From contig JAPWTW010000005.1 in NCBI GenBank assembly GCA_028275885.1, positions 30,001 to 62,000 on the forward strand: 32,000 nt of DNA, in the 5' to 3' direction. This DNA is from Candidatus Nanopusillus sp. (GTDB taxonomy: Archaea > Nanobdellota > Nanobdellia > Nanobdellales > Nanobdellaceae). The position numbers were made by a program, and so were the translations under genes. Each line of letters starts with the position of its first letter. The stretch's first letter is position 1. This document shows positions 732-25,933 of the stretch, in pieces. The notes beneath the pieces were generated by a model that had not been told where the DNA came from, made no database searches, and saw only the letters and a list, made by a program, of their open reading frames with translations.

Positions 732-2489
732 TTATTCGTAATATATTCCTTTTTGTTTTTGTATAAGATCTAATCTACTATTTTGTTTATTAATTCTTGG
801 CCTTTTTGTTTCTTCATCAGTTCTCATTGTTATATTCAATTGTTTTAGAAATATATTTAATCCCTCCTTATTTTCATATATACCCAAAGCTTTTCCATAT
901 TTACCAGGTTCCCCTGCAAATACCAAAATTCTATCAGAAATCCAATTCAAAAATATTAAATCATGATCTACAACTAAACATGCTTTCCCCCTAATTTTTA
1001 TTATATCTCTTATAAATTTTGATAATAATAATCTTTGTTCTATATCAAGATCTGCAAACGGTTCATCTATTAAATATAAATCTGCATCTTTTATCAATGT
1101 ACCAAATGTATATACTGTTTGTAATTCTCCTCCAGATAATGTATTAACCTCTCTATCTAATAGATCAGAAATATTTAACATTGATAAATATTCTTTATAA
1201 TCTTCTTTATATTTTTCATTAAAACTTTTCAAAAATTGATCTACAGTTATATTATAATTAGAAAAATCATAAAATTGTGGTTTATATGATATTGTTAAAT
1301 TTTTTGATATATTTCCTTCATATTTTATTTCTCCGGCTAAAGCTTTTACAAAAGTGCTTTTTCCAATTCCATTCCTTCCAACTACTCCAATTATTTCATT
1401 TTCTCTTATAAATCCTTCATTTGCCTCAAGTCTAAAATTATCTAAATTTACTATAACATTTTCCCATTCAACAATTTTTTTTCCAAATTTTACATCTGTA
1501 TAACTTTTTACATCCAATCTTATTGGCTTATCTCTTATTTTTAAATTCTCCCTCTTTATAAACCCATCTAAATATTGATTTATACCTTCTTTTGCTCCAA
1601 CAGGATATGAAAAAGCACCATATGCTTTTTGTACCCCATAAACAATATGTATTATATCAGAAATTGAATCTAAAAATAATAAATCATGATCTATTATTAA
1701 TATTGTATCTTTTTCCTTTATTTCATTTAAATTATTTAATATTCTTAATCTTTCATATATATCTAAATAATTTGTAACCTCATCAATTAATAATAAATTA
1801 TGTTCCTTATATACTGAAAATATATATAATATTTTCTGAAATTCCCCACCAGATAAATCTCCAATTTTTCTATCCAATATATTTTCTATTTCAAATTTTT
1901 TTGATATTTCATCTAAATTATTTATAACTTTTGATAAAAATTCTCTAACTGTTTTATCCTTTAACATATTTTTTATTTTAGTAATATTTTGTGGTTTATA
2001 TGATATTATTATTTTATTACTATATAATTTCTCAAAATATGATTGAAGTTCAGAACCTCTAAATTCTCTTATAATTTCTTTATCATCATATTTTTTATTA
2101 AAATCACCGAAATTTGGTTTTAATAAACCAGCTATTATATTTATTGCTGTACTTTTTCCCATCGCATTTCTTCCAATTATTCCAACAACTTTTCCTTCCT
2201 TAATTATTGGTAATCTATATAATCTAAATGTGTTTGGGCCATATTGAAATACTGGCTTTTCATCAGGTTCTTTTGTTAAGTTTATAATTATTATTGCATT
2301 AAATGGGCACTTTTTTACACATATTCCACATCCAATACACAAAGATTCATCAATAGATGGCTTTTTATCTTGTAAAATATTAAATATTTTTAAATTATTT
2401 TTTTGAACAGGACATACTTTCATACATATATAATCACATTTTTCAGGAGCCTTACATCTATCCCTATCAATTACAGCAATTCTTTTCAT
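732..2489 (-). CDS. abce1: ABCE1 / RNase L inhibitor homologue (ribosome recycling ATPase).
   Basis: The N-terminus has two 4Fe-4S clusters (CDYICMKVCP, CIGCGICVKKCP). Two ABC ATPase domains follow: Walker A GRNAMGKST and GRNGIGKST, signature LSGGE twice, and Walker B LLLIDE / LYLIDE. Confidence 0.95.
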   Translation of the reverse strand: MKRIAVIDRDRCKAPEKCDYICMKVCPVQKNNLKIFNILQDKKPSIDESLCIGCGICVKKCPFNAIIIINLTKEPDEKPVFQYGPNTFRLYRLPIIKEGKVVGIIGRNAMGKSTAINIIAGLLKPNFGDFNKKYDDKEIIREFRGSELQSYFEKLYSNKIIISYKPQNITKIKNMLKDKTVREFLSKVINNLDEISKKFEIENILDRKIGDLSGGEFQKILYIFSVYKEHNLLLIDEVTNYLDIYERLRILNNLNEIKEKDTILIIDHDLLFLDSISDIIHIVYGVQKAYGAFSYPVGAKEGINQYLDGFIKRENLKIRDKPIRLDVKSYTDVKFGKKIVEWENVIVNLDNFRLEANEGFIRENEIIGVVGRNGIGKSTFVKALAGEIKYEGNISKNLTISYKPQFYDFSNYNITVDQFLKSFNEKYKEDYKEYLSMLNISDLLDREVNTLSGGELQTVYTFGTLIKDADLYLIDEPFADLDIEQRLLLSKFIRDIIKIRGKACLVVDHDLIFLNWISDRILVFAGEPGKYGKALGIYENKEGLNIFLKQLNITMRTDEETKRPRINKQNSRLDLIQKQKGIYYE

Positions 2490-4288
2490 ACTAATTTAAA
2501 TTCTATCTTACTTTTATTATTTATAGCTTCTAATATTTCCTTTCCTATTTCAGAATTTAGATCTAAAACAATTTTTCCCTTTTTATTTATTTTAAATTTT
2601 CCAATTAATCTTCCATTTATATATAATTCTACATCCCTTTTCTTAAATAAATTATTAAACATTATTGTAAGATAATCTTTTGATATTTCATAATCAAAAT
2701 TTATACTTTCATTTAATTTTTCAGCATTTTTTATTTCAATTCTTAAATTATATTTATCTCTTATACTCATTAAATATCTTTTTTCATTTCTAATAAATTT
2801 TCTTTTGAGATCTTTTGGAATATAAAATATTATTCTATCATCCAAAACTTCCACATAAACATTATTATATTTTCTTTTATATTCTATATTTAATAAATCT
2901 TCTAAAAATCTTTGAATTCCAGATTTTAATCTATATTTTTTAATTGGAACAACCATTATTTCTTCGCCAAAAGTATATATTTCATATTCTAACTCATTTG
3001 TTAAAAAATCTCTTACTTCAACAACAGGTCTTGCCAGATCTTCTTCTTTTAAACCATATGGAATTTTAACAGTTAAATTTAAATAATATACTTTCTCAAC
3101 CTGTCCTTTATTTATATATATTATTGTATCAATTATTTGAGGAATTAAACCAAGCTCTGTCCTTGATAATAATCTATGAACAATATCTATTGGCCTTTCA
3201 GCATGTGCAACACCAATCATTCCAATTCCTGCCAATCTTAAATCTATATATAATTTAAAATCTCTAGTATCTCTCATTTCATCAAAAATTACATAATCAG
3301 GTCTTGATAATAATAATATATTATGTATTTCTTCATCAGTAGAATAATTTTTTGAATATTGAATAATATCTGGAGATACTATTAAATCTCTTGGAGATTC
3401 TACAGTTTTAACAATCTTTTTCATACTTAAATAATATTCTGCAAGAGCCTGAGCAAATGTTGTTTTTCCAGAACCTGGTTTCCCAACAATTACAATTCCT
3501 TCAGATTTTTCTTTTAATCTTTCAATTATTTTTTCATTCAAATTATAATCTTCTAATCTTAATATTTTTGATGGCTTTACAATTGTTATTTCATATGCAT
3601 CTGATAACGGGGGTTTTACAATTACAATTCTAAAAATTCCCAATTGAATAATTAAACTATTCTTTCTTTCTTGTTCTATAAAGGAATCTCTTCTATTTCT
3701 AGCAATATATATTATTTTATCAATTAAATCTTCTATATCTTTATTTCCATATACTTTATCTATTTCTTCTAAATACCAATCACCAGGTTTTCCTCTTTTT
3801 CTTTTTACTTTTGTATTTTCAATAATATGGACAGATATTGTATCATCAGTAAATAAATCTAAAAAAGGCAGATTTTCTTTTGAAACACCTTCCTTTTCAA
3901 TTAATAAACAATCGACATTATATACCTTTGCGGTTTCATATAATGTTCTGTCTGATGTTAACAATGTAGATCCTGTATCTCTTGCAATTTTAATAATTAA
4001 ATAATCTATGTATCCATGCTTTGCCAGTCTTATTTGTTCTAATGTTGGTTTTTCACCTAATATTGTTACTTTATAATTATATTTTTCAGATAGCTCTCTA
4101 ATTTTTTGAAGTTCCCTTAAACCAACCAATCCTTTTTCAAGACCTTTATTTGCCTGTGCTTGTAATTCATCAATTACAGGTACAGGTATTATTACTTCAT
4201 CAAAAGAAATACTATTATTTAATAATGATTTTGATACATATTCATCAATTACTATAGATGTATCTAATGTTATTTTATTTAATTTCAT
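2486..4288 (-). CDS. PIN domain - PilT-like ATPase - KH domain protein (COG1855 type).
   Basis: The N-terminus is PIN-like (ITLDTSIVID...TSD). A central Walker A GKPGSGKTT and Walker B-like VIFDEMRD follow, then a C-terminal RNA-binding-like region. The stop overlaps the abce1 start by 4 nt. Confidence 0.75.
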   Translation of the reverse strand: MKLNKITLDTSIVIDEYVSKSLLNNSISFDEVIIPVPVIDELQAQANKGLEKGLVGLRELQKIRELSEKYNYKVTILGEKPTLEQIRLAKHGYIDYLIIKIARDTGSTLLTSDRTLYETAKVYNVDCLLIEKEGVSKENLPFLDLFTDDTISVHIIENTKVKRKRGKPGDWYLEEIDKVYGNKDIEDLIDKIIYIARNRRDSFIEQERKNSLIIQLGIFRIVIVKPPLSDAYEITIVKPSKILRLEDYNLNEKIIERLKEKSEGIVIVGKPGSGKTTFAQALAEYYLSMKKIVKTVESPRDLIVSPDIIQYSKNYSTDEEIHNILLLSRPDYVIFDEMRDTRDFKLYIDLRLAGIGMIGVAHAERPIDIVHRLLSRTELGLIPQIIDTIIYINKGQVEKVYYLNLTVKIPYGLKEEDLARPVVEVRDFLTNELEYEIYTFGEEIMVVPIKKYRLKSGIQRFLEDLLNIEYKRKYNNVYVEVLDDRIIFYIPKDLKRKFIRNEKRYLMSIRDKYNLRIEIKNAEKLNESINFDYEISKDYLTIMFNNLFKKRDVELYINGRLIGKFKINKKGKIVLDLNSEIGKEILEAINNKSKIEFKLV

Positions 4289-11935: not shown

Positions 11936-13540
11936 TTAACCAATATAAATTAAAGGCATTACACCATTTGGAGGATATGCTCTAGCAATTACCCATTGGA
12001 TGTATAAACTTGATGATGCTAATGAACTGCTGCATACTCCTGATAATTCTAAAGTAGGATATTGAAATGGATTATAATTTAAACTTGCATATGTATATCT
12101 ATTATAATTTCTATTATATGTATTTAATAATGTTAATGGAACCCATACCTGATTAGTATTATAAATATAATATCCTGTTTGAGCATATGTTGAATTAACT
12201 ATCAAATATCCGTAAACCGTATCAGATTGAAATGGAAAACTTGTAGAATTTAAAGTTTGACCAGTTACTGCAGATCTTAAATATAATCCACCACTAGAAG
12301 GATGGTACCAGAAAAAAGCATTTGTAGATAAGTTAGGTACCGGTCCTGATATTTGGTTACTAGTATTTCCAAATAAAGATATTATAGACCCTCCTGTACC
12401 TATATAAATGGAATATGAAGAAGAATAGAAATACCAAGTTGTTTCAACAATTAAAGGCATTAAAGTAATATTCCAATTATTTGGAGGTAATATATATGTT
12501 CCACTACATTGTTGATAGTTTCCATTTGTCATTTGAATACCATTTGGAGTTACTTTAGGAGACCATAATGAGGAAGTGTTATATAAACCCCATCCATCTG
12601 TTGTATTATTAAAATATCCATATGCTGTAAATACATATCTACCATTATCATATTGTCTTGAAGGATCTACATTTGGAGAAGCACCCACATAAGGATAATA
12701 TTGTTGATAATAATTTGAAGAACTATTTCCTATATACATATATATTGTTACATTACTATTAGCATGGATACCATTATCTAATTTTATCCACCAAATCTTA
12801 CAATATGTACTTCCATTTATTAATTGTCCTTCATACCATGAATATATATCAGGAGTACTATTACAGGTTGTAGTAAAATATACATTTGATCCATTATTAT
12901 TAATTAAATTAAATAATGTTACATTGTTTATATAAGCAAAATTAGGACCTATATTTATTGTTCCATTACATATTGCAATATCTTGTTGGAATGGAGATGG
13001 TGTAGGAATGCTTTGAGTATTGTACAATGTTAAAGTTAAATATGGGAATTGACAAGTAAAATCTAATATGTTAAAGACAATTGGCGGTTGAAAATAATTA
13101 ATTAAATGATTTGAAATATATTTTATAGTAAATATTCCGATTATATCATTAACTATCCCAACTTCTAATTTATAATTTCCATTTTGATCTGGAGGAATTT
13201 GTGATAAATTTGCAACAATAATTAATAAACCATTGTTATATGGATTTACAATAGATCCATTTGAATTATAAGGATAAACTTTTACTAATCTATCATTTAA
13301 AATTGCAAATACTTGAGAATAATTAACAGGTTCTGAAGGTTTTACATATGCATATAAAGTATTATTTGCTATAAAATAATCTAATAATTGGAAATTTAAT
13401 TTTAAAGATTTTGAAATTCCCTGTCCAGTTGGATTTATGATATTTAAATTGGGAGAAATTATATTGTATATTATAACAGTAGCAAGAGCACCCGCTACCA
13501 ATAATATCAATGCTACAATCATCTCGGATTGTAATCTCAT
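11936..13540 (-). CDS. Secreted or surface protein: short pilin-like leader plus hydrophobic helix, then a DUF2341-like and a ConA/LamG-like region. Very rich in N-x-S/T sequons.
   Basis: The N-terminus is MRLQSEMIVALILLVAGALATVIIY. The stretch IYSWYEGQLINGSTYCKIWWIKLDNGIHANSNVTIYMYIGNSS resembles the DUF2341 signature (yW.E.w....a..WVk.p.i.a....iymyyGn). There are more than 15 N-x-S/T sites, and the composition is N/Y/S/T/G/P-rich, unlike the cytoplasmic proteins here. Confidence 0.55.
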   Translation of the reverse strand: MRLQSEMIVALILLVAGALATVIIYNIISPNLNIINPTGQGISKSLKLNFQLLDYFIANNTLYAYVKPSEPVNYSQVFAILNDRLVKVYPYNSNGSIVNPYNNGLLIIVANLSQIPPDQNGNYKLEVGIVNDIIGIFTIKYISNHLINYFQPPIVFNILDFTCQFPYLTLTLYNTQSIPTPSPFQQDIAICNGTINIGPNFAYINNVTLFNLINNNGSNVYFTTTCNSTPDIYSWYEGQLINGSTYCKIWWIKLDNGIHANSNVTIYMYIGNSSSNYYQQYYPYVGASPNVDPSRQYDNGRYVFTAYGYFNNTTDGWGLYNTSSLWSPKVTPNGIQMTNGNYQQCSGTYILPPNNWNITLMPLIVETTWYFYSSSYSIYIGTGGSIISLFGNTSNQISGPVPNLSTNAFFWYHPSSGGLYLRSAVTGQTLNSTSFPFQSDTVYGYLIVNSTYAQTGYYIYNTNQVWVPLTLLNTYNRNYNRYTYASLNYNPFQYPTLELSGVCSSSLASSSLYIQWVIARAYPPNGVMPLIYIG

Positions 13541-13550
13541 ATTATATTAA

Positions 13551-14009
13551 TTAATTAGCATATATTAAAGTTTGAAACTTAATCCCATAACAAGATACCA
13601 ATATTATATAATTCCATGAATTATTTACTAAATAATTATTGTTAAAATATATTGTTGCATTTTCACCCGGTAAAAATAGATTTGATGGATATAAATAATT
13701 TATAGAATAATTAAAAGGGGAAAAATAACCATTAACATATAATTGAAAACACGATAAATCTAATGCTTTATTTCCATTATTATATATAATTAAATATGGA
13801 CTTGAATAGTTTGTTTGATTATTTAAAAATTTTATATTTTCTCCTACAATATTTCTTACTTGGTTAGCTACCGAATTTGCTGTATAATAAAAATTCTTAT
13901 AATAATTATCTAAAATTAAATATAAAATAGATGAAGAAATAATAAAAATGACAAATCCAATAATTGCTCCAACAATTGATCCTAAATCAGATTTCATACT
14001 ACCGTACAC
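13551..14009 (-). CDS. Small pilin-like (class III signal peptide-like) secreted protein.
   Basis: The internal Met at 13997 gives MKSDLGSIVGAIIGFVIFIISS and an ATGA overlap with the upstream stop (13994-13996). The true start may therefore be 13997. It has an N-terminal hydrophobic helix, a sequon-rich N/Y-rich body, and about 150 aa. Confidence 0.45.
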   Translation of the reverse strand: MYGSMKSDLGSIVGAIIGFVIFIISSSILYLILDNYYKNFYYTANSVANQVRNIVGENIKFLNNQTNYSSPYLIIYNNGNKALDLSCFQLYVNGYFSPFNYSINYLYPSNLFLPGENATIYFNNNYLVNNSWNYIILVSCYGIKFQTLIYAN

Positions 14010-14473
14010 GTACTTGCAGTTGTATTAACATATACCAAATTCTGTGCATATGCTCCAGTAGATGCAACAATTTTTACTTGATAAAAGTTCGTTGTTACAG
14101 AAATATTTGCAACAATTGCAATTGTATCATAAGGCCCCCAAGCTGAAGTGCCAGTATAGCTGTTTGCAATATAAATTCTTGTATTATTTACTAATACTCC
14201 GTTAACAAATAATAATGTTAAATTTTGATTTAGTACTATACTTCCCCTGTTTGTTACATAGAAATATAATAAATTTGTTGTATTGTTATATGCACAAGAA
14301 TCTAATGTAATGTAAGTATTTAATTGATTTTGTAATGATTGAGAGTTTGCAATTGCAGCATTACTTATTCCATTTAAATTATTATATGCTGTAGAAACGA
14401 ATATATAAGCAGCAATACCAGCAACTATAAATAATATGATTTCTACAAGAATTGTTCCAAATTGAGTTTTCAT
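13994..14473 (-). CDS. Small pilin-like (class III signal peptide-like) secreted protein.
   Basis: The N-terminus is MKTQFGTILVEIILFIVAGIAAYIFVS. The remainder is beta-rich and N/T-rich with several N-x-S/T sites. It is the first gene of a three-gene minus-strand cluster. Confidence 0.45.
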   Translation of the reverse strand: MKTQFGTILVEIILFIVAGIAAYIFVSTAYNNLNGISNAAIANSQSLQNQLNTYITLDSCAYNNTTNLLYFYVTNRGSIVLNQNLTLLFVNGVLVNNTRIYIANSYTGTSAWGPYDTIAIVANISVTTNFYQVKIVASTGAYAQNLVYVNTTASTCTVV

Positions 14474-14504
14474 TAAGAATTATGATCTATTAAAAAATAT
14501 AAAT

Positions 14505-15320
14505 CTATTCTACCAATTCATACCCTTCAATACCTCTTTCATTCATATTTTTTTTCCATTCTAACATCCTTTCTTGTCTTTTTACTTCAAGTTCGCAAAC
14601 TTTATCTATTATTTTTAAATTCTGTATACCCTTTATTTCAATTTTTTCTCCCCCTTCTATTGATATATTTACATCTTGTCTAATAGTTCCCAATCCTCTT
14701 TTTACTTTTCCAGTTAATCTTAATATTAATCCAATATATTCAGCGACTTCCTTTACTTCTTTTGGATCTCTTAAATCAGGACCTGTAGATATTTCTATTA
14801 ATGGTATTCCTAATCTATCCAATCTATAAACTATATAATCTTCTCCCTCTTCAATTTTTCTTGCAGCGTCTTCTTCAATACAAATTGTTCCAATACTTAT
14901 CTTTTTATCTTTATATTTTAATTCTCCATTTAGTGATAATAATAATGTTCTTTGAAAACCAGATGTATTTGATCCATCTACAACAATCTTTCTCATAACC
15001 TGTAAAACCTTTGGAATATACATATTAAAAAATGTTGAGATTAATATTCCAAATTTTAATGCTTCAATATTAATTAAATGTGGTGGTTCTTCATCAAGCT
15101 CAACTAAACAAGAATAATCTTTAGAATATTCATATATATATTTTTTATCTTTCATAGTTTCATATTCTGCTGCAATATCTTTTTTTCCAATTTCACTTAA
15201 TGTTGCTCTCAATTTTCTTTCAATTTTATAATCATATTTATCACTTAAATTTGTAGGACAATTACAAAATAGTTTTTCTTTTGTATCAATTTGTTGATGT
15301 ATTTCTAATCCAGCAATCAT
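14505..15320 (-). CDS. gatE: Glu-tRNA(Gln) amidotransferase subunit E, N-terminal (cradle/catalytic) part only. Possible split gene.
   Basis: The motifs GLEIHQQI..KLFCNC, CLVELDEEPPH, MRKIVVDGSNTSGFQRT, LDRLGIPLIEISTGP, KRGLGTIRQDVNISI and EIKGIQNL are colinear with the first ~280 aa of ~620-aa GatE proteins. The ORF stops after 271 aa, and only a 31-bp spacer separates it from the next, unrelated gene. Confidence 0.8.
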   Translation of the reverse strand: MIAGLEIHQQIDTKEKLFCNCPTNLSDKYDYKIERKLRATLSEIGKKDIAAEYETMKDKKYIYEYSKDYSCLVELDEEPPHLINIEALKFGILISTFFNMYIPKVLQVMRKIVVDGSNTSGFQRTLLLSLNGELKYKDKKISIGTICIEEDAARKIEEGEDYIVYRLDRLGIPLIEISTGPDLRDPKEVKEVAEYIGLILRLTGKVKRGLGTIRQDVNISIEGGEKIEIKGIQNLKIIDKVCELEVKRQERMLEWKKNMNERGIEGYELVE

Positions 15321-18477: not shown

Positions 18478-21400
18478 ATGAACGATAGAGAGTTTATAAA
18501 TGATTTTTCTAATGAAAAAAAAGAAAAAGAGATTGTTTTAGGACAAAAAAATTATAAAATAAAAAAAGTTATTAAAAGAGACGGAAGAATTGTAGATTTT
18601 GATCCTGAAAGAATAAAATATGCTGTGGAGAGAGCAATGAAAGCTGTTGGTGCTTATGATAAAGAAAAGTTGGAAAAAGTTGTTGATTATGTAATAAAAG
18701 TATTAGAAGAAAAATATGATAATATAAAATATCCGACTGTTGAAGAGATTCAGGATATTGTTGAATTATCCTTATTGAAATTTGATTTATATGATGTTGC
18801 TAAGGCATATATTTCTTATAGGAAAGAAAAAGAAAAAATAAGAGAAGAAAAGAAAAATTTATTAGGAAGATTCTATGAAGAGGAAGTTGCAAAAAGATTT
18901 TCTATTAATTCAATTAGATTAATGGTAAATAGATATTTATTAAGAAATGAAAATAAAGAATTAATAGAAGGTCCAAAACAAATGTTTGAAAGGGTAGCAG
19001 CATTAATTGTAATACCAGATTTATTGTATGATGAAAGAGTATATGATAAAGAAGGAAAACAAAAAATACATCCAAAAGAAGAATTTGATTTTGAAAAAAA
19101 TGAGAATAAATATGGATTACCAATAAAAGATCCAAAGTTTAGGTGGAATAGATATCATTTAGAAAGAATGAAATATTTGTATGATTATTTAAATGAAAGG
19201 GGTCATATGAAAGTTTCATGGTCAGAATTTATAAAAATGTTAGAAAATGGAGAATTTGACAAATATTACGAGAATTTCTATCAATATTATGATTTAATGG
19301 CAAGTAAAAGATTTATGCCAAATTCCCCCACATTATTTAATGCAGGTGCAGTTTTAGGACAATTATCTGCATGTTTTGTATTAGATATTGATGATAATAT
19401 GGAATCAATAATGAAATCAGCAACAGAAGCAGCTTTAATATTTAAATCTGGTGGTGGAATTGGTATAAACTATTCAAAACTAAGACCTGAGGGTGATGTT
19501 GTTGCATCTACAGGAGGTGTTGCCTCAGGTCCTGTTTCATTTATGAAAATCATAGATACAGTTACGGATGTAGTAAAACAGGGAGGAAAAAGAAGAGGGG
19601 CAAATATGGGAATTTTAGAATCTTGGCATCCTGAAATATTTAAATTTATTCATTTGAAAGAAAAAGAAGGTGTATTAGAAAACTTTAATATATCTATAAT
19701 GTTCGAACCATCTTTTTGGGAATATTTTGAAAATAAAAAAGAATATCCATTAATCAATCCAAGGTTATTAAGGAAATATAATTTACCTTTGCCAGGGGAT
19801 CCAAATTTTGATATAAATAAAATACCAAAAGAATCAATTACAGGATATGTAAATCCTGAAAGAATATTACAAGAAGCATCATATGTTGCATGGGAAAAAG
19901 GAGATCCTGGATGTCTATTTATGGATAATATAAATAGAAGAAATGTTCAATATAAATATAGAGGGCCAATTAGAGCTACTAACCCATGTGTAACTGGAGA
20001 TATAAGAATTTTAACACCATACGGTCTTTTAAGGGCTGAGACTTTACTTTATTTAAACAATGAAAATGGTAGTGATATCAATAATATAAAACTTTTAGTA
20101 GATGGAGAAGAAGAAATTTTATATACAACTGTTTATGGAAAAACATTGAGCGTAAGTTCTCCAATATTAGTTGATGCAAAAGTTTGGAAAGTTGGATTCA
20201 AACCAACTGTTAAATTAATTTTGGAAAATGGAATGGAGATTGAAGTAACTGAAGATCATAAGATACTTACAAAAGATGGATGGATAGAAGCAAAATATGC
20301 TGAAGGAAAAGAAGTAAAAATAGCAAGAATTGATATTGATAAGATAGAAAATTATGGATTAAAGGAAATTGATGGAATAAAACTAGATAGAGAATTAGGA
20401 TTTTTATTAGGATGGTTAGTTGGTGATGGATATGTTGGAGAAAAAGTTTTCTTCTACTTTAATGCTAAAACTGAGAGAGAAGTTTCTGAATATGTAAAAG
20501 AGTTGCTTGAAAAGAAATTTGGAGTAAATGTTAGCAGATTTGAAAGAAATAATGAAATATGGATTTATGTGAGTAAGAAAGAGGTTGTTGATATTTTCAA
20601 AAAACTAATGAGAAAGAAAACCAGTTTACCAGAAATTGTTTTCCTAGCAAACTCAGAATTTGTTAAAGGATTTTTGAATGGTTTATTCTCAGCAGATGGA
20701 TATATTGATAAAGATGGAGCAATAAGATTAACCTCATCTAATAAAGATTTATTGAAAGAAGTACAACTTTTGCTAACTTTATTTGGTATATTTTCAAAGA
20801 TTTATGAAAGACCTTATAAGAGAAAATTTGAGTATATTACTGTAAATGGTGAAAAGAGAGAATATGAAGCTAATGGATATTATGAACTTATAATCAAAAA
20901 TTATAGTAGAAAAATTTTTGAAGAAAAGATAAAATTGGTAGATTATAAAAATGAAAAGCTCTTAGAAAGACTAAAGAAAAATAAAATTGATAATAATTAT
21001 GTTAAGATTGTGAGAGTAGAATACGTTGGTGAAAAAATGGTTTATGACTTTAGTGTTCCTGGATTTAATAGATATATTTCTAATGGAATAATAAGTCATA
21101 ATTGTGGTGAACAGCCTCTATATCCATATGAATCTTGTAATTTAGGATCAATCAATCTATATGCTTTGGTTGAATTTAAAGATGGAAAGGCAGAATTTAA
21201 TTGGGATAAATATATTGAAACAATAAAATGGGCATATAGATTTTTAGATAATGTAATAGATGTAAATAAATATCCAATAAAGGAAATTGAAGAAGCATCA
21301 AAAGCAGTAAGAAGGATTGGTTTAGGATTTATGGGACTGGCAGATATGTTTTATGCATTGAGAATTCCATATTCGTCAGAAGAGGGATATAAGTTATTGA

Positions 21401-22380
21401 TGAAAATAACAGAATATTTAACGTATTATTCAATGTTAGAATCTGTTGAAAGGGCAAAAACAAGGGGTAAATTCGATAGATACGATCAAACAACATACAA
21501 AGATGGTGAATTACCTATAGAAGGATATTATCATAAAGAATTATGGACATTAGATTGGGAATATTTGAAAGAACAAATAATGAAATATGGAATAAGAAAT
21601 GTTGAAGTTACATCAATTGCCCCTACTGGTTCAATATCAATGTTAGCAGATACTTCTTCGGGTATTGAACCACAATATTCATTAGTATATGAAAAAAGAG
21701 TAACTGCTGGTGTATATTACTATGTAGATCTAGAATTGGAAAGACAATTGAGAGAAAGAGGATTATATAATAATGAGATATTAAAGAAAATATCTGATAA
21801 TGGTGGAAGTTTATTGGGAATAAAAGAAATTCCAGATGATTTAAAAGCAGTATTTTTAACAGCATTAGATATACCATGGTGGGATCATATAAGAGCACAG
21901 GCAGTTGCTCAAATATGGATAACTACATCAATATCAAAAACAATAAATATGCCAAATTGGGTTCAGCCAGACGATGTATATTATTCATATTTATTAGCAT
22001 ATAAGATGGGATGTAAAGGAATTACAATATATAGAGATGGATCAAAATCTGCACAAGTATATGTAGCTCCTGCTGAAGCAAGTAAAGCAAGAATGATGGA
22101 TTACTTTAGATTAGTTAAGGAAGGAAAAATAAATAATAGAACAGTTGAAATATTAAAACAATATGGAATAAAGTTACCAAACTGGTATTATGAATTAAAT
22201 AACAATGTTGAGATACCAAAAGTAAAATTGAATGTAAACATTAATAATACATTGAGAGTTGAAGAAAATGGAAATAATAAAATTGAAAAATGTCCTGTAT
22301 GCGGATCTACAAGGTTAAAACATGAGGCTGGTTGTGTTGTATGTATGGATTGTGGATGGTCAGAATGTATAATTGCTTAA
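18478..22380 (+). CDS. nrdJ: Ribonucleoside-diphosphate/triphosphate reductase, class II (adenosylcobalamin-type, NrdJ-like), with an N-terminal ATP-cone and one intein.
   Basis: ATP-cone: VIKRDGRIVDFDPERIKYAVERA. PNSPTLFNAG is present. The thiyl-radical motif TNP|C..GEQ is interrupted by an intein. ESCNLGSINL follows, and the tail is KCPVCGS...CVVCMDCG. The extein is 928 aa. The class call is by eye. Confidence 0.85.
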   Translation: MNDREFINDFSNEKKEKEIVLGQKNYKIKKVIKRDGRIVDFDPERIKYAVERAMKAVGAYDKEKLEKVVDYVIKVLEEKYDNIKYPTVEEIQDIVELSLLKFDLYDVAKAYISYRKEKEKIREEKKNLLGRFYEEEVAKRFSINSIRLMVNRYLLRNENKELIEGPKQMFERVAALIVIPDLLYDERVYDKEGKQKIHPKEEFDFEKNENKYGLPIKDPKFRWNRYHLERMKYLYDYLNERGHMKVSWSEFIKMLENGEFDKYYENFYQYYDLMASKRFMPNSPTLFNAGAVLGQLSACFVLDIDDNMESIMKSATEAALIFKSGGGIGINYSKLRPEGDVVASTGGVASGPVSFMKIIDTVTDVVKQGGKRRGANMGILESWHPEIFKFIHLKEKEGVLENFNISIMFEPSFWEYFENKKEYPLINPRLLRKYNLPLPGDPNFDINKIPKESITGYVNPERILQEASYVAWEKGDPGCLFMDNINRRNVQYKYRGPIRATNPCVTGDIRILTPYGLLRAETLLYLNNENGSDINNIKLLVDGEEEILYTTVYGKTLSVSSPILVDAKVWKVGFKPTVKLILENGMEIEVTEDHKILTKDGWIEAKYAEGKEVKIARIDIDKIENYGLKEIDGIKLDRELGFLLGWLVGDGYVGEKVFFYFNAKTEREVSEYVKELLEKKFGVNVSRFERNNEIWIYVSKKEVVDIFKKLMRKKTSLPEIVFLANSEFVKGFLNGLFSADGYIDKDGAIRLTSSNKDLLKEVQLLLTLFGIFSKIYERPYKRKFEYITVNGEKREYEANGYYELIIKNYSRKIFEEKIKLVDYKNEKLLERLKKNKIDNNYVKIVRVEYVGEKMVYDFSVPGFNRYISNGIISHNCGEQPLYPYESCNLGSINLYALVEFKDGKAEFNWDKYIETIKWAYRFLDNVIDVNKYPIKEIEEASKAVRRIGLGFMGLADMFYALRIPYSSEEGYKLLMKITEYLTYYSMLESVERAKTRGKFDRYDQTTYKDGELPIEGYYHKELWTLDWEYLKEQIMKYGIRNVEVTSIAPTGSISMLADTSSGIEPQYSLVYEKRVTAGVYYYVDLELERQLRERGLYNNEILKKISDNGGSLLGIKEIPDDLKAVFLTALDIPWWDHIRAQAVAQIWITTSISKTINMPNWVQPDDVYYSYLLAYKMGCKGITIYRDGSKSAQVYVAPAEASKARMMDYFRLVKEGKINNRTVEILKQYGIKLPNWYYELNNNVEIPKVKLNVNINNTLRVEENGNNKIEKCPVCGSTRLKHEAGCVVCMDCGWSECIIA
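19987..21102 (+). mobile_element. Intein (372 aa) with a LAGLIDADG homing-endonuclease domain, inserted in the RNR active-site motif.
   Basis: It starts with Cys (CVTGDIRILT, block A). Block B is VTEDHKILT. The two LAGLIDADG motifs are LGFLLGWLVGDGYV and VKGFLNGLFSADGYI. It ends ...GIISHN, followed by the +1 Cys of CGEQPLY. The flanks rejoin to TNP-CGEQ. Confidence 0.85.
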
Positions 22381-24924: not shown

Positions 24925-25317
24925 ATGCTAGATAGGTTTTTTGAATTATTTGTAATTGTTCTAGTAATATTTTTTATTACATTATTATTAATGGATAAAG
25001 TTTCTTATATTTATAATATTAATGAAAAGTATCTAATTATATATAATCAATTTATGCATGGAAGAATTTTAATTAAAGAAATTACAGAACAATATACTGA
25101 TAATATTTGTAATTTAACATCAAATAATTTTGATTCAAATATAATGAATAATTTAGCAAGTTTTCCATATGAAATAATATATAAAAACTTAAGTAATATT
25201 AGTCAGGAATATATTTTTAGTAATGACAATATAACAAATATGCAAAATTATATAGAATTTAATAGGGTTTGTTATTATGATGGCTCATTATTTTTAGTCA
25301 GTGTATTGGTTCAATGA
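24925..25317 (+). CDS. Small membrane-anchored or secreted protein, pilin-like N-terminus (130 aa).
   Basis: MLDRFFELFVIVLVIFFITLLLM is followed by an N/Y/I-rich body with N-x-S/T sites (NLT, NLS, NIS, NIT). It is the first of three overlapping ORFs. Confidence 0.4.
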   Translation: MLDRFFELFVIVLVIFFITLLLMDKVSYIYNINEKYLIIYNQFMHGRILIKEITEQYTDNICNLTSNNFDSNIMNNLASFPYEIIYKNLSNISQEYIFSNDNITNMQNYIEFNRVCYYDGSLFLVSVLVQ

Positions 25318-25658
25318 GATCTTTTAGTATATCAATATTTATTGAATTAGTAGTTGTAATAATTGTTTTATATTTTATTTTAACTTCAACATATTATAGT
25401 AATTTTTATATTAAAGGATATAATAAAGAAGATCTGTATGCATCATTAATATCAATAAATTATATGTATCTAAATAATACACAGCAATTAAATGATAGTT
25501 TATATCAAATTGTTACAAATATTTTACCATATTATTATGTTGAAATAGATGGACAATTAGCATTTAATAATATAAATTTAAATGAAGCTGAACAGGGAAT
25601 CGTAACTTTTTATATTATTAATGGCTCAATAGATTATGTATATATATATTGGAAATGA
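25314..25658 (+). CDS. Small pilin-like protein (114 aa).
   Basis: MRSFSISIFIELVVVIIVLYFIL is followed by an N/Y-rich body (NNT, NDS, NGS). It has an ATGA overlap with the upstream ORF. Confidence 0.4.
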   Translation: MRSFSISIFIELVVVIIVLYFILTSTYYSNFYIKGYNKEDLYASLISINYMYLNNTQQLNDSLYQIVTNILPYYYVEIDGQLAFNNINLNEAEQGIVTFYIINGSIDYVYIYWK

Positions 25659-25933
25659 GATCACAATTTATTTTATTATATTTAGTCTTAATATTATTTA
25701 TTACATTATATTTTATTTCAAATTTGCAAAACAATTTCTATTATCAACCAAATATTGGTAAATATATTGCAGAGGATTTTTATGTCAAATTATTATTATA
25801 TCCAAATTATTCTTCTATCATAAATGAAACATATTATAACATTTGTATGTGGGAAAATATTATATGTTATGATAATGGAACAAATATAATAGTTATAACT
25901 CAAAATTCTGAATATATATTAAATAAACCATAG
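25649..25933 (+). CDS. Small pilin-like protein (94 aa).
   Basis: MEMRSQFILLYLVLILFITLYFIS is followed by an N/Y-rich body (NYS, NET, NGT). It overlaps the upstream ORF by 10 nt. The last base of its TAG is G1 of tRNA-Glu. Confidence 0.4.
   Translation: MEMRSQFILLYLVLILFITLYFISNLQNNFYYQPNIGKYIAEDFYVKLLLYPNYSSIINETYYNICMWENIICYDNGTNIIVITQNSEYILNKP

What the first reader, a model, noticed from the sequence alone, without database searches (positions are those of the whole stretch)
11936..14473. Three-gene operon of sequon-rich surface proteins with very short pilin-like leaders, including a 534-aa DUF2341/LamG-like protein
Three consecutive minus-strand ORFs (159, about 148-152, and 534 aa) overlap by ATGA or are separated by 10 nt. 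Each starts with 3-4 polar or charged residues and then a roughly 20-aa hydrophobic helix: MKT/QFGTILVEIILFIVAGIAA, MKS/DLGSIVGAIIGFVIF, MRL/QSEMIVALILLVAGALA. This is the layout of archaeal class III (type IV pilin-like) signal peptides, but residue -1 is S/T/L rather than the usual G/A. The mature parts are N/Y/S/T-rich and packed with N-x-S/T sites. The large protein has a DUF2341-like block (IYSWYEGQ...KIWWIKLDNGIHANSNVTIYMYIGNSS). No assembly ATPase, platform protein or prepilin peptidase lies nearby. In an obligate ectosymbiont-type archaeon, such a fibre or adhesin set is a plausible host-attachment structure.
Basis: partly seen in the sequence, partly recalled or inferred. Interest (0 to 1): 0.62.

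Follow-up and report, generated by a model that had tools for sequence, protein, structure and literature searches.

The report
Archaellum stator genes plus lectin-headed paralogue
In this tiny hot-spring symbiotic archaeon, two of the three genes look like the ArlF/ArlG anchoring proteins of the archaeal swimming filament. The third is a relative of them carrying a swappable sugar-binding-type head, which makes it a testable candidate link between swimming and sticking to the cell coat or a host.

Summary
The three minus-strand ORFs are real (159 aa, 148 aa from its ATG, 534 aa), tightly packed, and conserved in the same order across the Nanobdellales.

They are not an orphan pilin set. The 159-aa protein passes Pfam's archaellin-domain threshold. 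Its structure model best matches the S. acidocaldarius ArlG/ArlF stator crystal structures. The 148-aa protein is its paralogue (hhalign 97.9%). Residues 1-127 of the 534-aa protein form a third, more distant paralogue (94%).

Residues 166-534 form a concanavalin-A-like jelly-roll head. It is a diverged relative of the DUF2341 heads that the same gene carries in other genera.

This head belongs to a family of about 10 copies per genome. Head trees conflict with anchor type (AU p = 1.6e-4). The nearest species keeps 86-90% identity in the anchors but only 46% in the head.

The module is missing only from the two order members that also lack ArlI and archaellins.

The genome encodes ArlH, ArlI, four further type IV ATPases and a weak prepilin-peptidase candidate, all elsewhere.

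Best reading: an archaellum stator module whose third subunit displays an exchangeable lectin head. Its target (own S-layer or host) is unknown.

Earlier notes of this scan reached the same reading on other Nanopusillaceae genomes.

The parts
14474..14504 (-). 31-nt spacer between the split gatE N-terminal gene and gene 1. A TATA-like TTTATAT lies at 14497-14503, which is -30 to -24 from the ATG. This is a likely promoter of a leaderless transcript.
   Evidence: Read directly from the sequence. Weak evidence, because such strings are common in a genome of about 24% G+C.
13994..14473 (-). Gene 1, 159 aa: an ArlF/ArlG-family protein. It has a long N-terminal helix and a beta-sandwich of about 105 aa. 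Cys60 and Cys156 are invariant.
   Evidence: Pfam PF01917 scores 35.7 bits against a cut-off of 29.5. NCBIfam ArlF scores 54 bits and ArlG 35 bits. The AF2 model has pLDDT 84. Foldseek hits are 5tuh_A (FlaG; TM 0.65, rmsd 3.4) and 6pbk_A. JGI names orthologues 'archaellum component FlaF'.
13551..13997 (-). Gene 2, 148 aa from the ATG (a GTG at 14009 would give 152 aa): a paralogue of gene 1 and the second ArlF/ArlG-type protein. Cys83 and Cys136 are invariant.
   Evidence: hhalign against the gene 1 family gives probability 97.9% and E = 4e-13 over the full length. NCBIfam ArlF gives E = 4e-4. It is single-copy in 19 of 21 genomes of the order.
13106..13540 (-). Gene 3, N-terminal anchor (aa 1-145): a hydrophobic helix (aa 2-28) and a beta-sandwich (aa 50-140). 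It is the third ArlF/G-like paralogue. Glu6 is invariant.
   Evidence: hhalign against the gene 1 family gives probability 94% and E = 1e-7 over residues 1-127. Secondary structure comes from the AF2 model. The domain is restricted to 11 representative clusters out of 1.84 billion proteins. Three of these are standalone proteins of 134-138 aa.
11936..13045 (-). Gene 3, head (aa 166-534, plus the stop codon): a concanavalin-A-like jelly-roll related to DUF2341/LamG. It is a member of a multi-copy, recombining family. Variable segments lie at about aa 316-345, 366-385, 396-445 and 496-515.
   Evidence: Foldseek matches legume lectins and ERGIC-53 (TM 0.5-0.6, E = 1e-5 to 1e-4). hhalign against the canonical DUF2341 heads of the same gene in other genera gives probability 80% and E = 1.4e-5. 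Paralogues. Tree and AU test. Entropy profile.
12716..12889 (-).
   Evidence: Sub-threshold Pfam PF10102 hit (13 bits, E = 0.14). The same block aligns with IWVKVP..I.ANGN.TIYIYYGN of the canonical heads.

Best explanation
This is the ArlF/ArlG (FlaF/FlaG) module of the archaellum in a Nanopusillaceae nanoarchaeon. It lies apart from the motor genes, which is usual in this group.

Genes 1 and 2 encode two archaellin-domain proteins, each with a membrane-anchoring N-terminal helix and a small beta-sandwich. By analogy with the Sulfolobus and Pyrococcus proteins, they form the pseudo-periplasmic stator or anchor of the archaellum (inferred).

Gene 3 encodes a third paralogue of the same anchor. 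Its C-terminus carries a concanavalin-A-like (DUF2341/LamG-type) head (shown at domain level).

The head is drawn from a family of about ten copies per genome. These copies are also mounted on true pilin N-termini and on Sec-type leaders. Heads are exchanged between the copies by recombination that starts at the domain border (shown by tree incongruence and by DNA similarity).

The likely role of gene 3 is to tie the ArlF/G complex to a glycan-bearing surface, either the cell's own glycosylated S-layer or the host envelope (inferred; the target is not resolved).
For: ArlF/ArlG identity of genes 1 and 2:
- Gene 1 passes the PF01917 threshold and its best matches are ArlF/ArlG profiles.
- Its model superposes on S. 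acidocaldarius FlaG and on a chain of the FlaF/FlaG complex with rmsd 3.3-3.4 A, against about 7 A for full archaellins.
- Gene 2 and the gene 3 N-domain are paralogues of gene 1.
- No other ArlF/ArlG-like gene is found in the genome.

Link to the archaellum:
- A true ArlI (651 bits against a cut-off of 550), ArlH, an ArlC/D/E fusion and archaellins lie elsewhere in the genome.
- The three-gene order is conserved in two families of the order.
- The module is missing only from G002 (98% complete) and G004 (76% complete). These two also lack ArlI over its cut-off and lack archaellins, yet both keep other T2SSE ATPases.

Head always mounted on an ArlF/G-like anchor:
- In one lineage (G020) the DUF2341 head is fused to gene 2 instead of gene 3.

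Head swapping:
- Against Nst1, identity is 90%, 89% and 86% in the anchors but 46% in the head.
- ArlF/G-anchored heads need at least 10 label changes on the head tree.
- Holding them as one clade costs 522 log-likelihood units (AU p = 1.6e-4).
- DNA similarity to the paralogues begins at nt 509, which is aa 170.

Literature:
- Makarova 2016 lists FlaF and FlaG for Nst1 (PMC4858521).
- Kato 2023 calls MJ1_0772 and MJ1_0773 archaellin-like without a signal peptide.
- Scattered arl genes are described for Nanobdellati (PMC13705601).
Against: - NCBIfam ArlF/ArlG equivalog cut-offs (110 bits) are not reached (54 and 35 bits).
- HMMER profiles of the three families found no ArlF/ArlG structure in the PDB by sequence.
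- The module is not next to arlH/arlI. A separate 128-aa helix-plus-beta protein occupies the usual ArlF/G slot in the arlCDE-p128-arlH-arlI cluster. One of the pair here may therefore be an extra paralogue.
- In other genera the N-termini look like ordinary class III leaders (MRG|F.., MRG|D..), which fits cleaved pilins as well.
- The same head type sits on true pilin N-termini elsewhere in the genome.
- The p534 model is only moderate (pLDDT 63).
- Co-occurrence rests on at most two losses, one of them in an incomplete genome.
- There are no expression, localisation or binding data.
Confidence: 0.6

Rival explanations
1. The three proteins are minor pilins of one of the non-archaellar type IV pili. 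The prepilin peptidase cleaves them. They form a tip or priming complex in which two small pilins carry and stabilise a modular lectin pilin, as PilA/PilC do in Streptococcus sanguinis.
For: - The N-termini are pilin-like, and in other genera they have [KR]G/A at -2/-1.
- Bona fide pilin N-domains of this lineage use Ser at -1 (MKS|ISP.., MYIRS|ISP..), so the Ser of gene 2 could be accepted.
- The genome has four T2SSE ATPases besides ArlI, several platform proteins and an A24-like protein.
- The same head family sits on true Pilin_N domains. In contig C10 it lies in an operon with a canonical pilin.
- A precedent exists: PilA stabilises the lectin-bearing modular pilin PilC (PMC9934059).
Against: - Gene 1's best profile and fold matches are ArlF/ArlG, not Pilin_N.
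- The -1 residue of gene 3 is Leu or Ile throughout this genus, which is unlikely for an A24 peptidase.
- The module is absent from G002, which keeps two T2SSE ATPases but no archaellum.
- It is never next to an ATPase/platform pair in the loci examined.
Confidence: 0.25
2. The proteins are simple N-terminally anchored (type II) surface glycoproteins or lectins. They work independently of any filament machine. Their resemblance to ArlF/G is only ancestral, and their co-location is a relic of tandem duplication.
For: - There are no machinery genes in the neighbourhood.
- The head family also occurs behind plain Sec-type leaders.
- Both small genes carry +1 insertions in the published N. acidilobi 7A genome while gene 3 is intact.
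- G019 carries nonsense codons in its fused gene. This suggests the module is dispensable.
Against: - The three-gene order and the anchor domains are strictly conserved across two families.
- Two independent architectures keep the head on an ArlF/G-type anchor.
- The module is missing only from the two order members that lack ArlI and archaellins.
- The 7A indels lie in homopolymer runs and may be sequencing errors.
Confidence: 0.1

Closest known systems
ArlF/ArlG (FlaF/FlaG), the archaellum stator or anchor pair (S. acidocaldarius PDB 4P94, 5TUH, 5TUG/6PBK; P. furiosus)
   Same: - An N-terminal hydrophobic helix plus a small archaellin-type beta-sandwich.
- Two adjacent paralogous genes.
- N-glycosylation sequons.
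- Gene 1 passes PF01917 and superposes on FlaG and on a chain of the FlaF/FlaG complex.
- The module is missing only from the two order members that lack ArlI and archaellins.
   Different: - The genes lie apart from arlH/I/J.
- A third paralogue is present and carries a lectin-type head of about 370 aa. I did not find this described for any ArlF/G.
- N-termini in sister genera resemble class III leaders, whereas ArlF/G are described as lacking them.
- NCBIfam equivalog cut-offs are not reached.
Modular minor pilin PilC with its partner PilA in Streptococcus sanguinis type IV pili (PMC9934059)
   Same: - A short filament-type N-terminal moiety with a grafted concanavalin-A-type lectin module.
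- A small paralogous partner protein.
- A proposed adhesion role.
   Different: - It is bacterial and is a true class III prepilin cleaved by a prepilin peptidase.
- It is encoded in the pilus locus.
- No sequence relationship was shown here, and PilC was not among the top 50 fold matches.
- It is an analogy of design, not membership.
DUF2341 proteins of archaeal type IV pilus loci (arCOG03508 and related; PilY-like predicted tip adhesins; Makarova et al. 2016, PMC4858521)
   Same: - A DUF2341/LamG-type module on proteins associated with type IV filament systems.
- A predicted adhesin role.
- Orthologues of gene 3 in Nanoclepta and in genus g2 carry bona fide DUF2341 (83-85 bits).
   Different: - Here the module is mounted on an ArlF/G-like anchor beside arlF/arlG rather than in a pilus locus.
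- The copy in this window is too diverged to pass the Pfam threshold.
Lectin-like surface proteins proposed for host recognition in cultivated DPANN (Nanobdella MJ1_0179; Nanohalobium LC1Nh_0399-0401; bioRxiv 10.1101/2023.10.27.564410)
   Same: - An N-terminal TM helix, an Ig-like domain and a ConA-like lectin domain.
- Heavily sequon-bearing.
- Proposed host recognition.
   Different: MJ1_0179 is a different locus. No head match falls near its expected map position. MJ1_0774, which by gene order should be the gene 3 orthologue, is not mentioned in that text.

Membership tests
ArlF/ArlG archaellum stator proteins | Archaellin-type domain: an N-terminal hydrophobic helix followed by a small beta-sandwich, recognised by PF01917 | tested here: met
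   Gene 1 scores 35.7 bits on PF01917 against a cut-off of 29.5. Its AF2 model matches 5tuh_A (TM 0.65) and 6pbk_A (TM 0.61). Gene 2 and the gene 3 N-domain are linked to gene 1 by hhalign at 97.9% and 94%.
ArlF/ArlG archaellum stator proteins | Score over the curated NCBIfam equivalog cut-offs (NF052590 ArlF, NF052591 ArlG; 110 bits) | tested here: not met
   Gene 1 scores 54.4 bits on ArlF and 35.5 bits on ArlG. Gene 2 scores 20.4 bits on ArlF. Of the 14 control genomes, only one is over the cut-off, so the models are narrow.
ArlF/ArlG archaellum stator proteins | Encoded within the arl cluster, next to arlH/I/J | tested here: not met
   arlCDE-p128-arlH-arlI are on contig C6 and the archaellins on C8. 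This module is on C11, between gatE-N and tRNA-His. A scattered organisation is reported for Nanobdellati (PMC13705601).
ArlF/ArlG archaellum stator proteins | Present where, and only where, an archaellum is encoded | tested here: met
   The module is found in 19 of 21 genomes of the order. It is missing from G002 and G004, which also lack ArlI over its cut-off and lack archaellins. This amounts to few independent events, and G004 is only 76% complete.
ArlF/ArlG archaellum stator proteins | No class III signal peptide; not processed by the prepilin peptidase | tested here: inconclusive
   The window proteins have T, S and L at the putative -1 position, which does not match the [KR][GA] motif as I recall it from FlaFind. 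Orthologues in other genera have RG or RA. Cleavage cannot be decided from sequence.
ArlF/ArlG archaellum stator proteins | ArlF-ArlG heterocomplex, S-layer binding, and requirement for archaellation | not testable with these tools
   This needs biochemistry or genetics in a cultivated relative.
Type IV pilins / class III signal-peptide proteins | Short leader ending in [KR][GA], followed by a hydrophobic tract of about 20 residues | tested here: not met
   The leaders are MKT|QFG.., MKS|DLG.. and MRL|QSE... An alternative cut, MKTQFG|TILVE, would give Gly at -1 and Glu at +5 but has no basic residue at -2. The hydrophobic tract is present.
Type IV pilins / class III signal-peptide proteins | Prepilin peptidase, assembly ATPase and platform protein encoded in the genome | tested here: met
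   There are five strong T2SSE hits and several T2SSF hits. The A24 candidate at C8:60861-61847 scores 21-24 bits, below the 26.5 cut-off. It has YQD..(about 55 aa)..AIGD motifs.
DUF2341 (PF10102) | Score over the Pfam gathering threshold (23.4 bits) | tested here: not met
   p534 scores 13 bits. None of the 43 family members in alignment A4 hits at E <= 0.01. The same gene in Nanoclepta and genus g2 scores 83-85 bits. hhalign of this head family against those heads gives probability 80% and E = 1.4e-5.
Concanavalin-A-like lectin/glucanase fold | Two-sheet jelly-roll that superposes on L-type lectins | tested here: met
   Foldseek matches ERGIC-53, legume lectins and VIP36 with TM 0.5-0.6 over about 240-260 columns (E = 1e-5 to 1e-3). 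The model is of moderate quality (pLDDT 63).
Concanavalin-A-like lectin/glucanase fold | Carbohydrate- and metal-binding residues; actual glycan binding | not tested
   Model confidence is too low in the loop regions. This needs glycan arrays.

The most novel reading that the evidence does not exclude
The lectin-headed ArlF/G paralogue, and its pilin-anchored siblings, are built into or around the archaellum itself. They would account for the unexplained 'corrugated' proximal tube or the thorn-like decorations seen on Nanobdella aerobiophila archaella (PMC11104419). The swimming organelle would then double as a host-recognition device. Its specificity would be re-set by cassette-like exchange of heads among about ten genomic copies.
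Probability: 0.15. Interest if true: 0.8.

Novelty: new variant of a known kind. Interest (0 to 1): 0.52.

Why it matters
How ultra-small DPANN symbionts find and grip their specific hosts is an open question. Free Nanobdella cells swim with archaella that carry unexplained extra densities.

This module ties a variable, recombining lectin-type head to the archaellum's own anchoring proteins. It therefore offers named genes to test by tagging, cryo-ET, glycan arrays and S-layer binding in the existing co-cultures (MJ1_0772 and MJ1_0773; MJ1_0774 by gene order; the YN1 orthologues from YN1_3230 on).

It also shows that ArlF/ArlG, thought of as a fixed pair, can expand to three paralogues and acquire an adhesin-type module.

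The two small genes are already annotated or noted as FlaF or archaellin-like, so that part is ordinary.

Tried and rejected
- HMMER profiles of the three anchor families against PDB sequences found nothing meaningful. The link to ArlF/G structures came only from fold comparison.
- The search for related loci with the 9-sequence alignment failed for lack of a conserved stretch. A 4-sequence alignment worked.
- Pfam scans of 43 head-family members gave no DUF2341 hit. HMMER and BLAST of the head against canonical DUF2341 heads matched only a 22-24-residue motif. Only hhalign gave a moderate link.
- I asked whether the 128-aa protein in the arlCDE-arlH-arlI cluster is the 'real' ArlF or ArlG. 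hhalign to gene 2 gives 54% and to gene 1 gives 3%. This stays unresolved.
- I asked whether G019, whose fused gene has nonsense codons and where no ArlI was found, had lost its archaellum. I rejected this because it keeps archaellin genes and is only 82% complete.
- I asked whether MJ1_0179, the lectin-like protein of Kato et al., is a member of this head family. No head match lies near its expected map position.
- The sigma-70 promoter scan was not used, because it does not apply to archaea.
Full report
**1. Observation**

The window is G000:C11:30001-62000. The assembly is 531 kb in 13 contigs, has about 24% G+C and is 85% complete. Close protein matches are named Candidatus Nanopusillus or Nanobsidianus.

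Three minus-strand ORFs lie at 13994-14473 (159 aa), 13551-14009 (152 aa from GTG; 148 aa from the ATG at 13997) and 11936-13540 (534 aa). Gene callers in related records use the 148-aa start.
- Genes 1 and 2 overlap by ATGA. Genes 2 and 3 are 10 nt apart.
- A 31-nt spacer separates gene 1 from the upstream split gatE N-terminal gene. It holds TTTATAT at -30 to -24 from the ATG. This fits a leaderless archaeal transcript but is weak evidence in so A+T-rich a genome.
- tRNA-His follows 29 nt after the stop of gene 3.

Sequon density is 3.4-3.8 per 100 aa, in the top 4% of the genome's larger ORFs. Other predicted surface proteins are similar. Only the 534-aa protein exceeds shuffles of its own composition (19 against 10.3 +/- 2.7).

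**2. What genes 1 and 2 are**

*Profile matches.* Gene 1 passes Pfam's archaellin-domain model (PF01917: 35.7 bits, cut-off 29.5). Its best NCBIfam matches are ArlF (54 bits) and ArlG (35 bits), both below the narrow equivalog cut-offs of 110. Gene 2 gives ArlF at E = 4e-4.

*Structure.* An AlphaFold model of gene 1, built on 14 orthologues, has pLDDT 84. It shows a helix at residues 3-52 and an eight-strand sandwich.
- Foldseek returns archaellins (9eq7, 5o4u) at about 7 A rmsd. This reflects the long helix.
- For the globular part it returns S. acidocaldarius FlaG (5tuh_A: TM 0.65, 3.4 A) and a chain of the FlaF/FlaG complex (6pbk_A: TM 0.61, 3.3 A).
- The globular domain of about 105 aa has the size of ArlF/G, not of an archaellin.

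*Paralogy.* Profile-profile comparison of orthologue alignments links gene 2 to gene 1 over the full length (97.9%, E = 4e-13). Each family keeps a pair of invariant cysteines, as expected for extracytoplasmic domains.

*Uniqueness in the genome.* Six-frame searches of the whole genome with the ArlF and ArlG models find no better candidate. Apart from gene 1, which is by far the best hit, there are only much weaker matches, among them the archaellins and pilin-type N-domains.

*Existing annotation.* JGI labels orthologues of gene 1 'archaellum component FlaF'. Makarova et al. list single FlaF and FlaG genes for nanoarchaeote Nst1 (PMC4858521). Kato et al. describe MJ1_0772 and MJ1_0773 as archaellin-like without a detectable signal peptide. 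I matched only MJ1_0772 to gene 1; MJ1_0773 corresponds to gene 2 by gene order. The YN1 paper lists FlaBDEHIJF.

So this part is known, at the level of annotation.

**3. What gene 3 is**

*Anchor.* The model (43-sequence alignment; pLDDT 63) shows a helix at residues 2-28, a beta-sandwich at 50-140 and a large beta-rich region from 167 onward. Residues 1-127 align with the gene 1 family at 94% probability (E = 1e-7). The link to gene 2 is not significant.

A profile of this N-domain, searched against 1.84 billion representative proteins, finds only 11 clusters. All are of this kind, and three are standalone proteins of 134-138 aa. It is therefore a lineage-restricted third ArlF/G-like paralogue.

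*Head.* The head (aa 166-534) matches L-type lectins (ERGIC-53, legume lectins, VIP36) with TM 0.5-0.6. Its relation to DUF2341 is as follows.
- Pfam DUF2341 is sub-threshold here (13 bits).
- The gene in the same position scores 83-85 bits in Nanoclepta minutus and in genus g2.
- A canonical DUF2341 start is visible in family f2.
- HMMER and BLAST link the heads only through the IWW.K....ANSN.TIYMY.GN motif.
- hhalign gives 80% probability (E = 1.4e-5) over 222 columns, including the ...RAYPP / ...RKY.PEP end.

I read the head as a strongly diverged DUF2341/LamG-type module. Formal membership is not met.

**4. Conservation and link to the archaellum**

The gene 2 protein is found, single-copy, in 19 of 21 genomes of the order. 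In every locus examined the order is gene 1, gene 2, gene 3 anchor. In Nst1 and in a Nanopusillus MAG the wider neighbourhood is also the same, from the RNR gene to nurA.

A true ArlI (651 bits, cut-off 550), ArlH (KaiC-type), an ArlC/D/E fusion and archaellins of 283 and 197 aa are on other contigs of this genome.

Across the order, ArlI is over its cut-off in 16 genomes. In two more (G010/YN1 and G001) the match is split inside long open frames, probably by inteins.

The two genomes without the module are G002 (98% complete) and G004 (76% complete). They are also the two without ArlI and without any archaellin. Both keep other T2SSE ATPases.

This favours a link to the archaellum over the other type IV pili. 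The evidence rests on at most two loss events.

In G020 the head is fused in frame to gene 2, and no third anchor is present. The head is thus kept on an ArlF/G-type anchor in two different architectures.

**5. The head is a swappable cassette**

*Copy number.*
- tblastn finds at least six further copies in this genome. Three of them lie at contig ends.
- The complete genomes of N. acidilobi, YN1 and Nanobdella give 10-11 matches each, some of them tandem copies within one open frame.
- No copy is found in Nanoclepta or in G002 at this sensitivity.

*N-terminal contexts.* Among 108 near-complete heads from public data, 22 are labelled as ArlF/G-type anchors. Others follow a true archaeal pilin N-domain plus an Ig-like domain, short MKS|IS.. 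leaders, Sec-type leaders, or other N-termini.

*Incongruence.*
- On a maximum-likelihood tree of the heads, the ArlF/G-anchored ones need 12 label changes, 10 of them forced by well-supported branches.
- The test group was these 22 plus one fragment that starts inside the anchor. Forcing it into one clade costs 522 log-likelihood units (AU p = 1.6e-4).
- I defined the group by N-terminus, but I ran the test after seeing the tree.

*Anchors against heads.*
- Against Nst1, identity is 90%, 89% and 86% for gene 1, gene 2 and the gene 3 anchor. It is 46% for the head.
- In-genome paralogous heads are 59-61% identical.
- Some heads on unrelated N-termini are 83-87% identical.

*DNA level.* Nucleotide similarity to the paralogues (75-80%, exact runs up to 57 nt) starts at nt 509, which is aa 170 and the domain border. 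Within the head, a conserved scaffold alternates with variable segments at about aa 316-345, 366-385, 396-445 and 496-515.

*Context.* This fits the report of high non-synonymous SNP density in N-terminally anchored hypothetical surface proteins of Yellowstone Nanoarchaeota (PMC6142677).

**6. The leaders**

In this genus the residue before the hydrophobic tract is T, N or S in gene 1, S in gene 2, and L or I in gene 3. In other genera it is G or A, after R or K.

Bona fide pilin N-domains of the lineage often have Ser at -1. Cleavage of gene 2, and perhaps of gene 1, cannot be excluded. For gene 3 it looks unlikely.

An alternative cut, MKTQFG|TILVE, would give Gly at -1 and Glu at +5 but lacks a basic residue at -2.

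The review literature states that ArlF/G lack class III signal peptides and that ArlG cleavage in Sulfolobus does not depend on PibD (PMC10117864).

The genome has an A24-like membrane protein (21-24 bits, below the cut-off). It has a YQD motif and an AIGD motif about 55 residues apart.

**7. Mechanism**

*Shown:* the domain architecture, the paralogy, the conservation, the distribution relative to archaellum genes, and the head exchange.

*Inferred:*
- Genes 1 and 2 act as the ArlF/ArlG stator or anchor.
- Gene 3 joins that complex through its homologous anchor and presents a lectin head.
- The head binds glycans.

*Target.* The target is unresolved. An S-layer target would parallel S-layer binding by ArlF in Sulfolobus. 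Rapid head turnover argues more for a variable external ligand such as the host envelope.

*Possible structural counterpart.* Gaisin et al. saw a corrugated proximal segment and thorn-like densities on Nanobdella archaella that are so far unexplained (PMC11104419). This family is a candidate for them, at low probability.

*Main rival.* In the main rival reading, the three proteins form a PilA/PilC-like tip complex of a non-archaellar pilus (PMC9934059).

**8. Novelty and earlier notes**

I did not find the following described in the papers I read: the third paralogue, its conserved place beside arlF/arlG, the alternative fusion to gene 2, and the cassette-like head exchange. MJ1_0774, which by gene order should be the gene 3 orthologue, is not mentioned by Kato et al..

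Earlier notes of this scan on other Nanopusillaceae genomes reached essentially the same reading. This window is therefore a further instance, re-derived here from its own data.

Verdict: a new variant of a known kind, of moderate interest.

Noticed in passing
L051 (G019:C4) and L052 (G020:C13), about nt 1480-2870 of the reverse strand: In G020, gene 2 (p148-like) is fused in frame to a canonical DUF2341 head, giving 462 aa. G019 has three nonsense codons in the same gene (TGG>TAG twice, AGA>TGA). It shows 33 differences in 1392 nt of the gene, against 11 in the other 2013 nt of the locus.
   Followed up: partly
L064 (N. acidilobi 7A, CP010514) 3001-3940: Both small genes carry +1 insertions in short homopolymer runs (the product Nps_03420 is 90 aa). 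Gene 3 (536 aa) is intact. This could be real decay in the cultured strain or a sequencing error.
   Followed up: partly
G000:C6:1411-4902: Main arl cluster: ArlC/D/E fusion (243 aa), a 128-aa protein with an N-terminal helix and a small beta domain, ArlH (234 aa) and ArlI (557 aa). The 128-aa protein sits where arlF/arlG usually lie. It has only a weak hhalign link to gene 2 (54%).
   Followed up: partly
G010:C1:498553-501540 and G001:C21:921-4307: ArlI matches are split inside open frames of 1049 and 1172 aa. These are probably intein-containing ArlI genes.
   Followed up: no
window 24925-25933 (+): A second run of three overlapping small ORFs (130, 114, 94 aa), each with an N-terminal hydrophobic helix and an N/Y-rich body. 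It ends at tRNA-Glu. There are no significant Pfam hits.
   Followed up: partly
window 14505-15320 (-): A GatB/GatE catalytic domain alone (271 aa), ending 31 nt before gene 1. It is a split gatE, conserved as such in Nst1 and in a Nanopusillus MAG.
   Followed up: no
window 18478-22380 (+): A ribonucleotide reductase of 1300 aa with an intein-splicing domain and LAGLIDADG domains inserted in the barrel domain.
   Followed up: no
window 2486-4288 (-): A 600-aa protein with an N-terminal PIN domain and a weak T2SSE-type P-loop ATPase region (26 bits). It is not an archaellum or pilus assembly ATPase.
   Followed up: no
G000 contig ends C2:1-1208, C2:36562-37054, C4:2-802, C8:78481-79131: Copies of the lectin-head family, or their pilin-type N-termini, lie at contig ends. 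The family probably causes assembly breaks, so its copy number in this MAG is under-counted.
   Followed up: partly
P0138-P0140 (metagenomic proteins, 134-138 aa): Standalone versions of the gene 3 anchor without any head. The third paralogue may therefore predate the fusion, or the head is encoded separately there.
   Followed up: no
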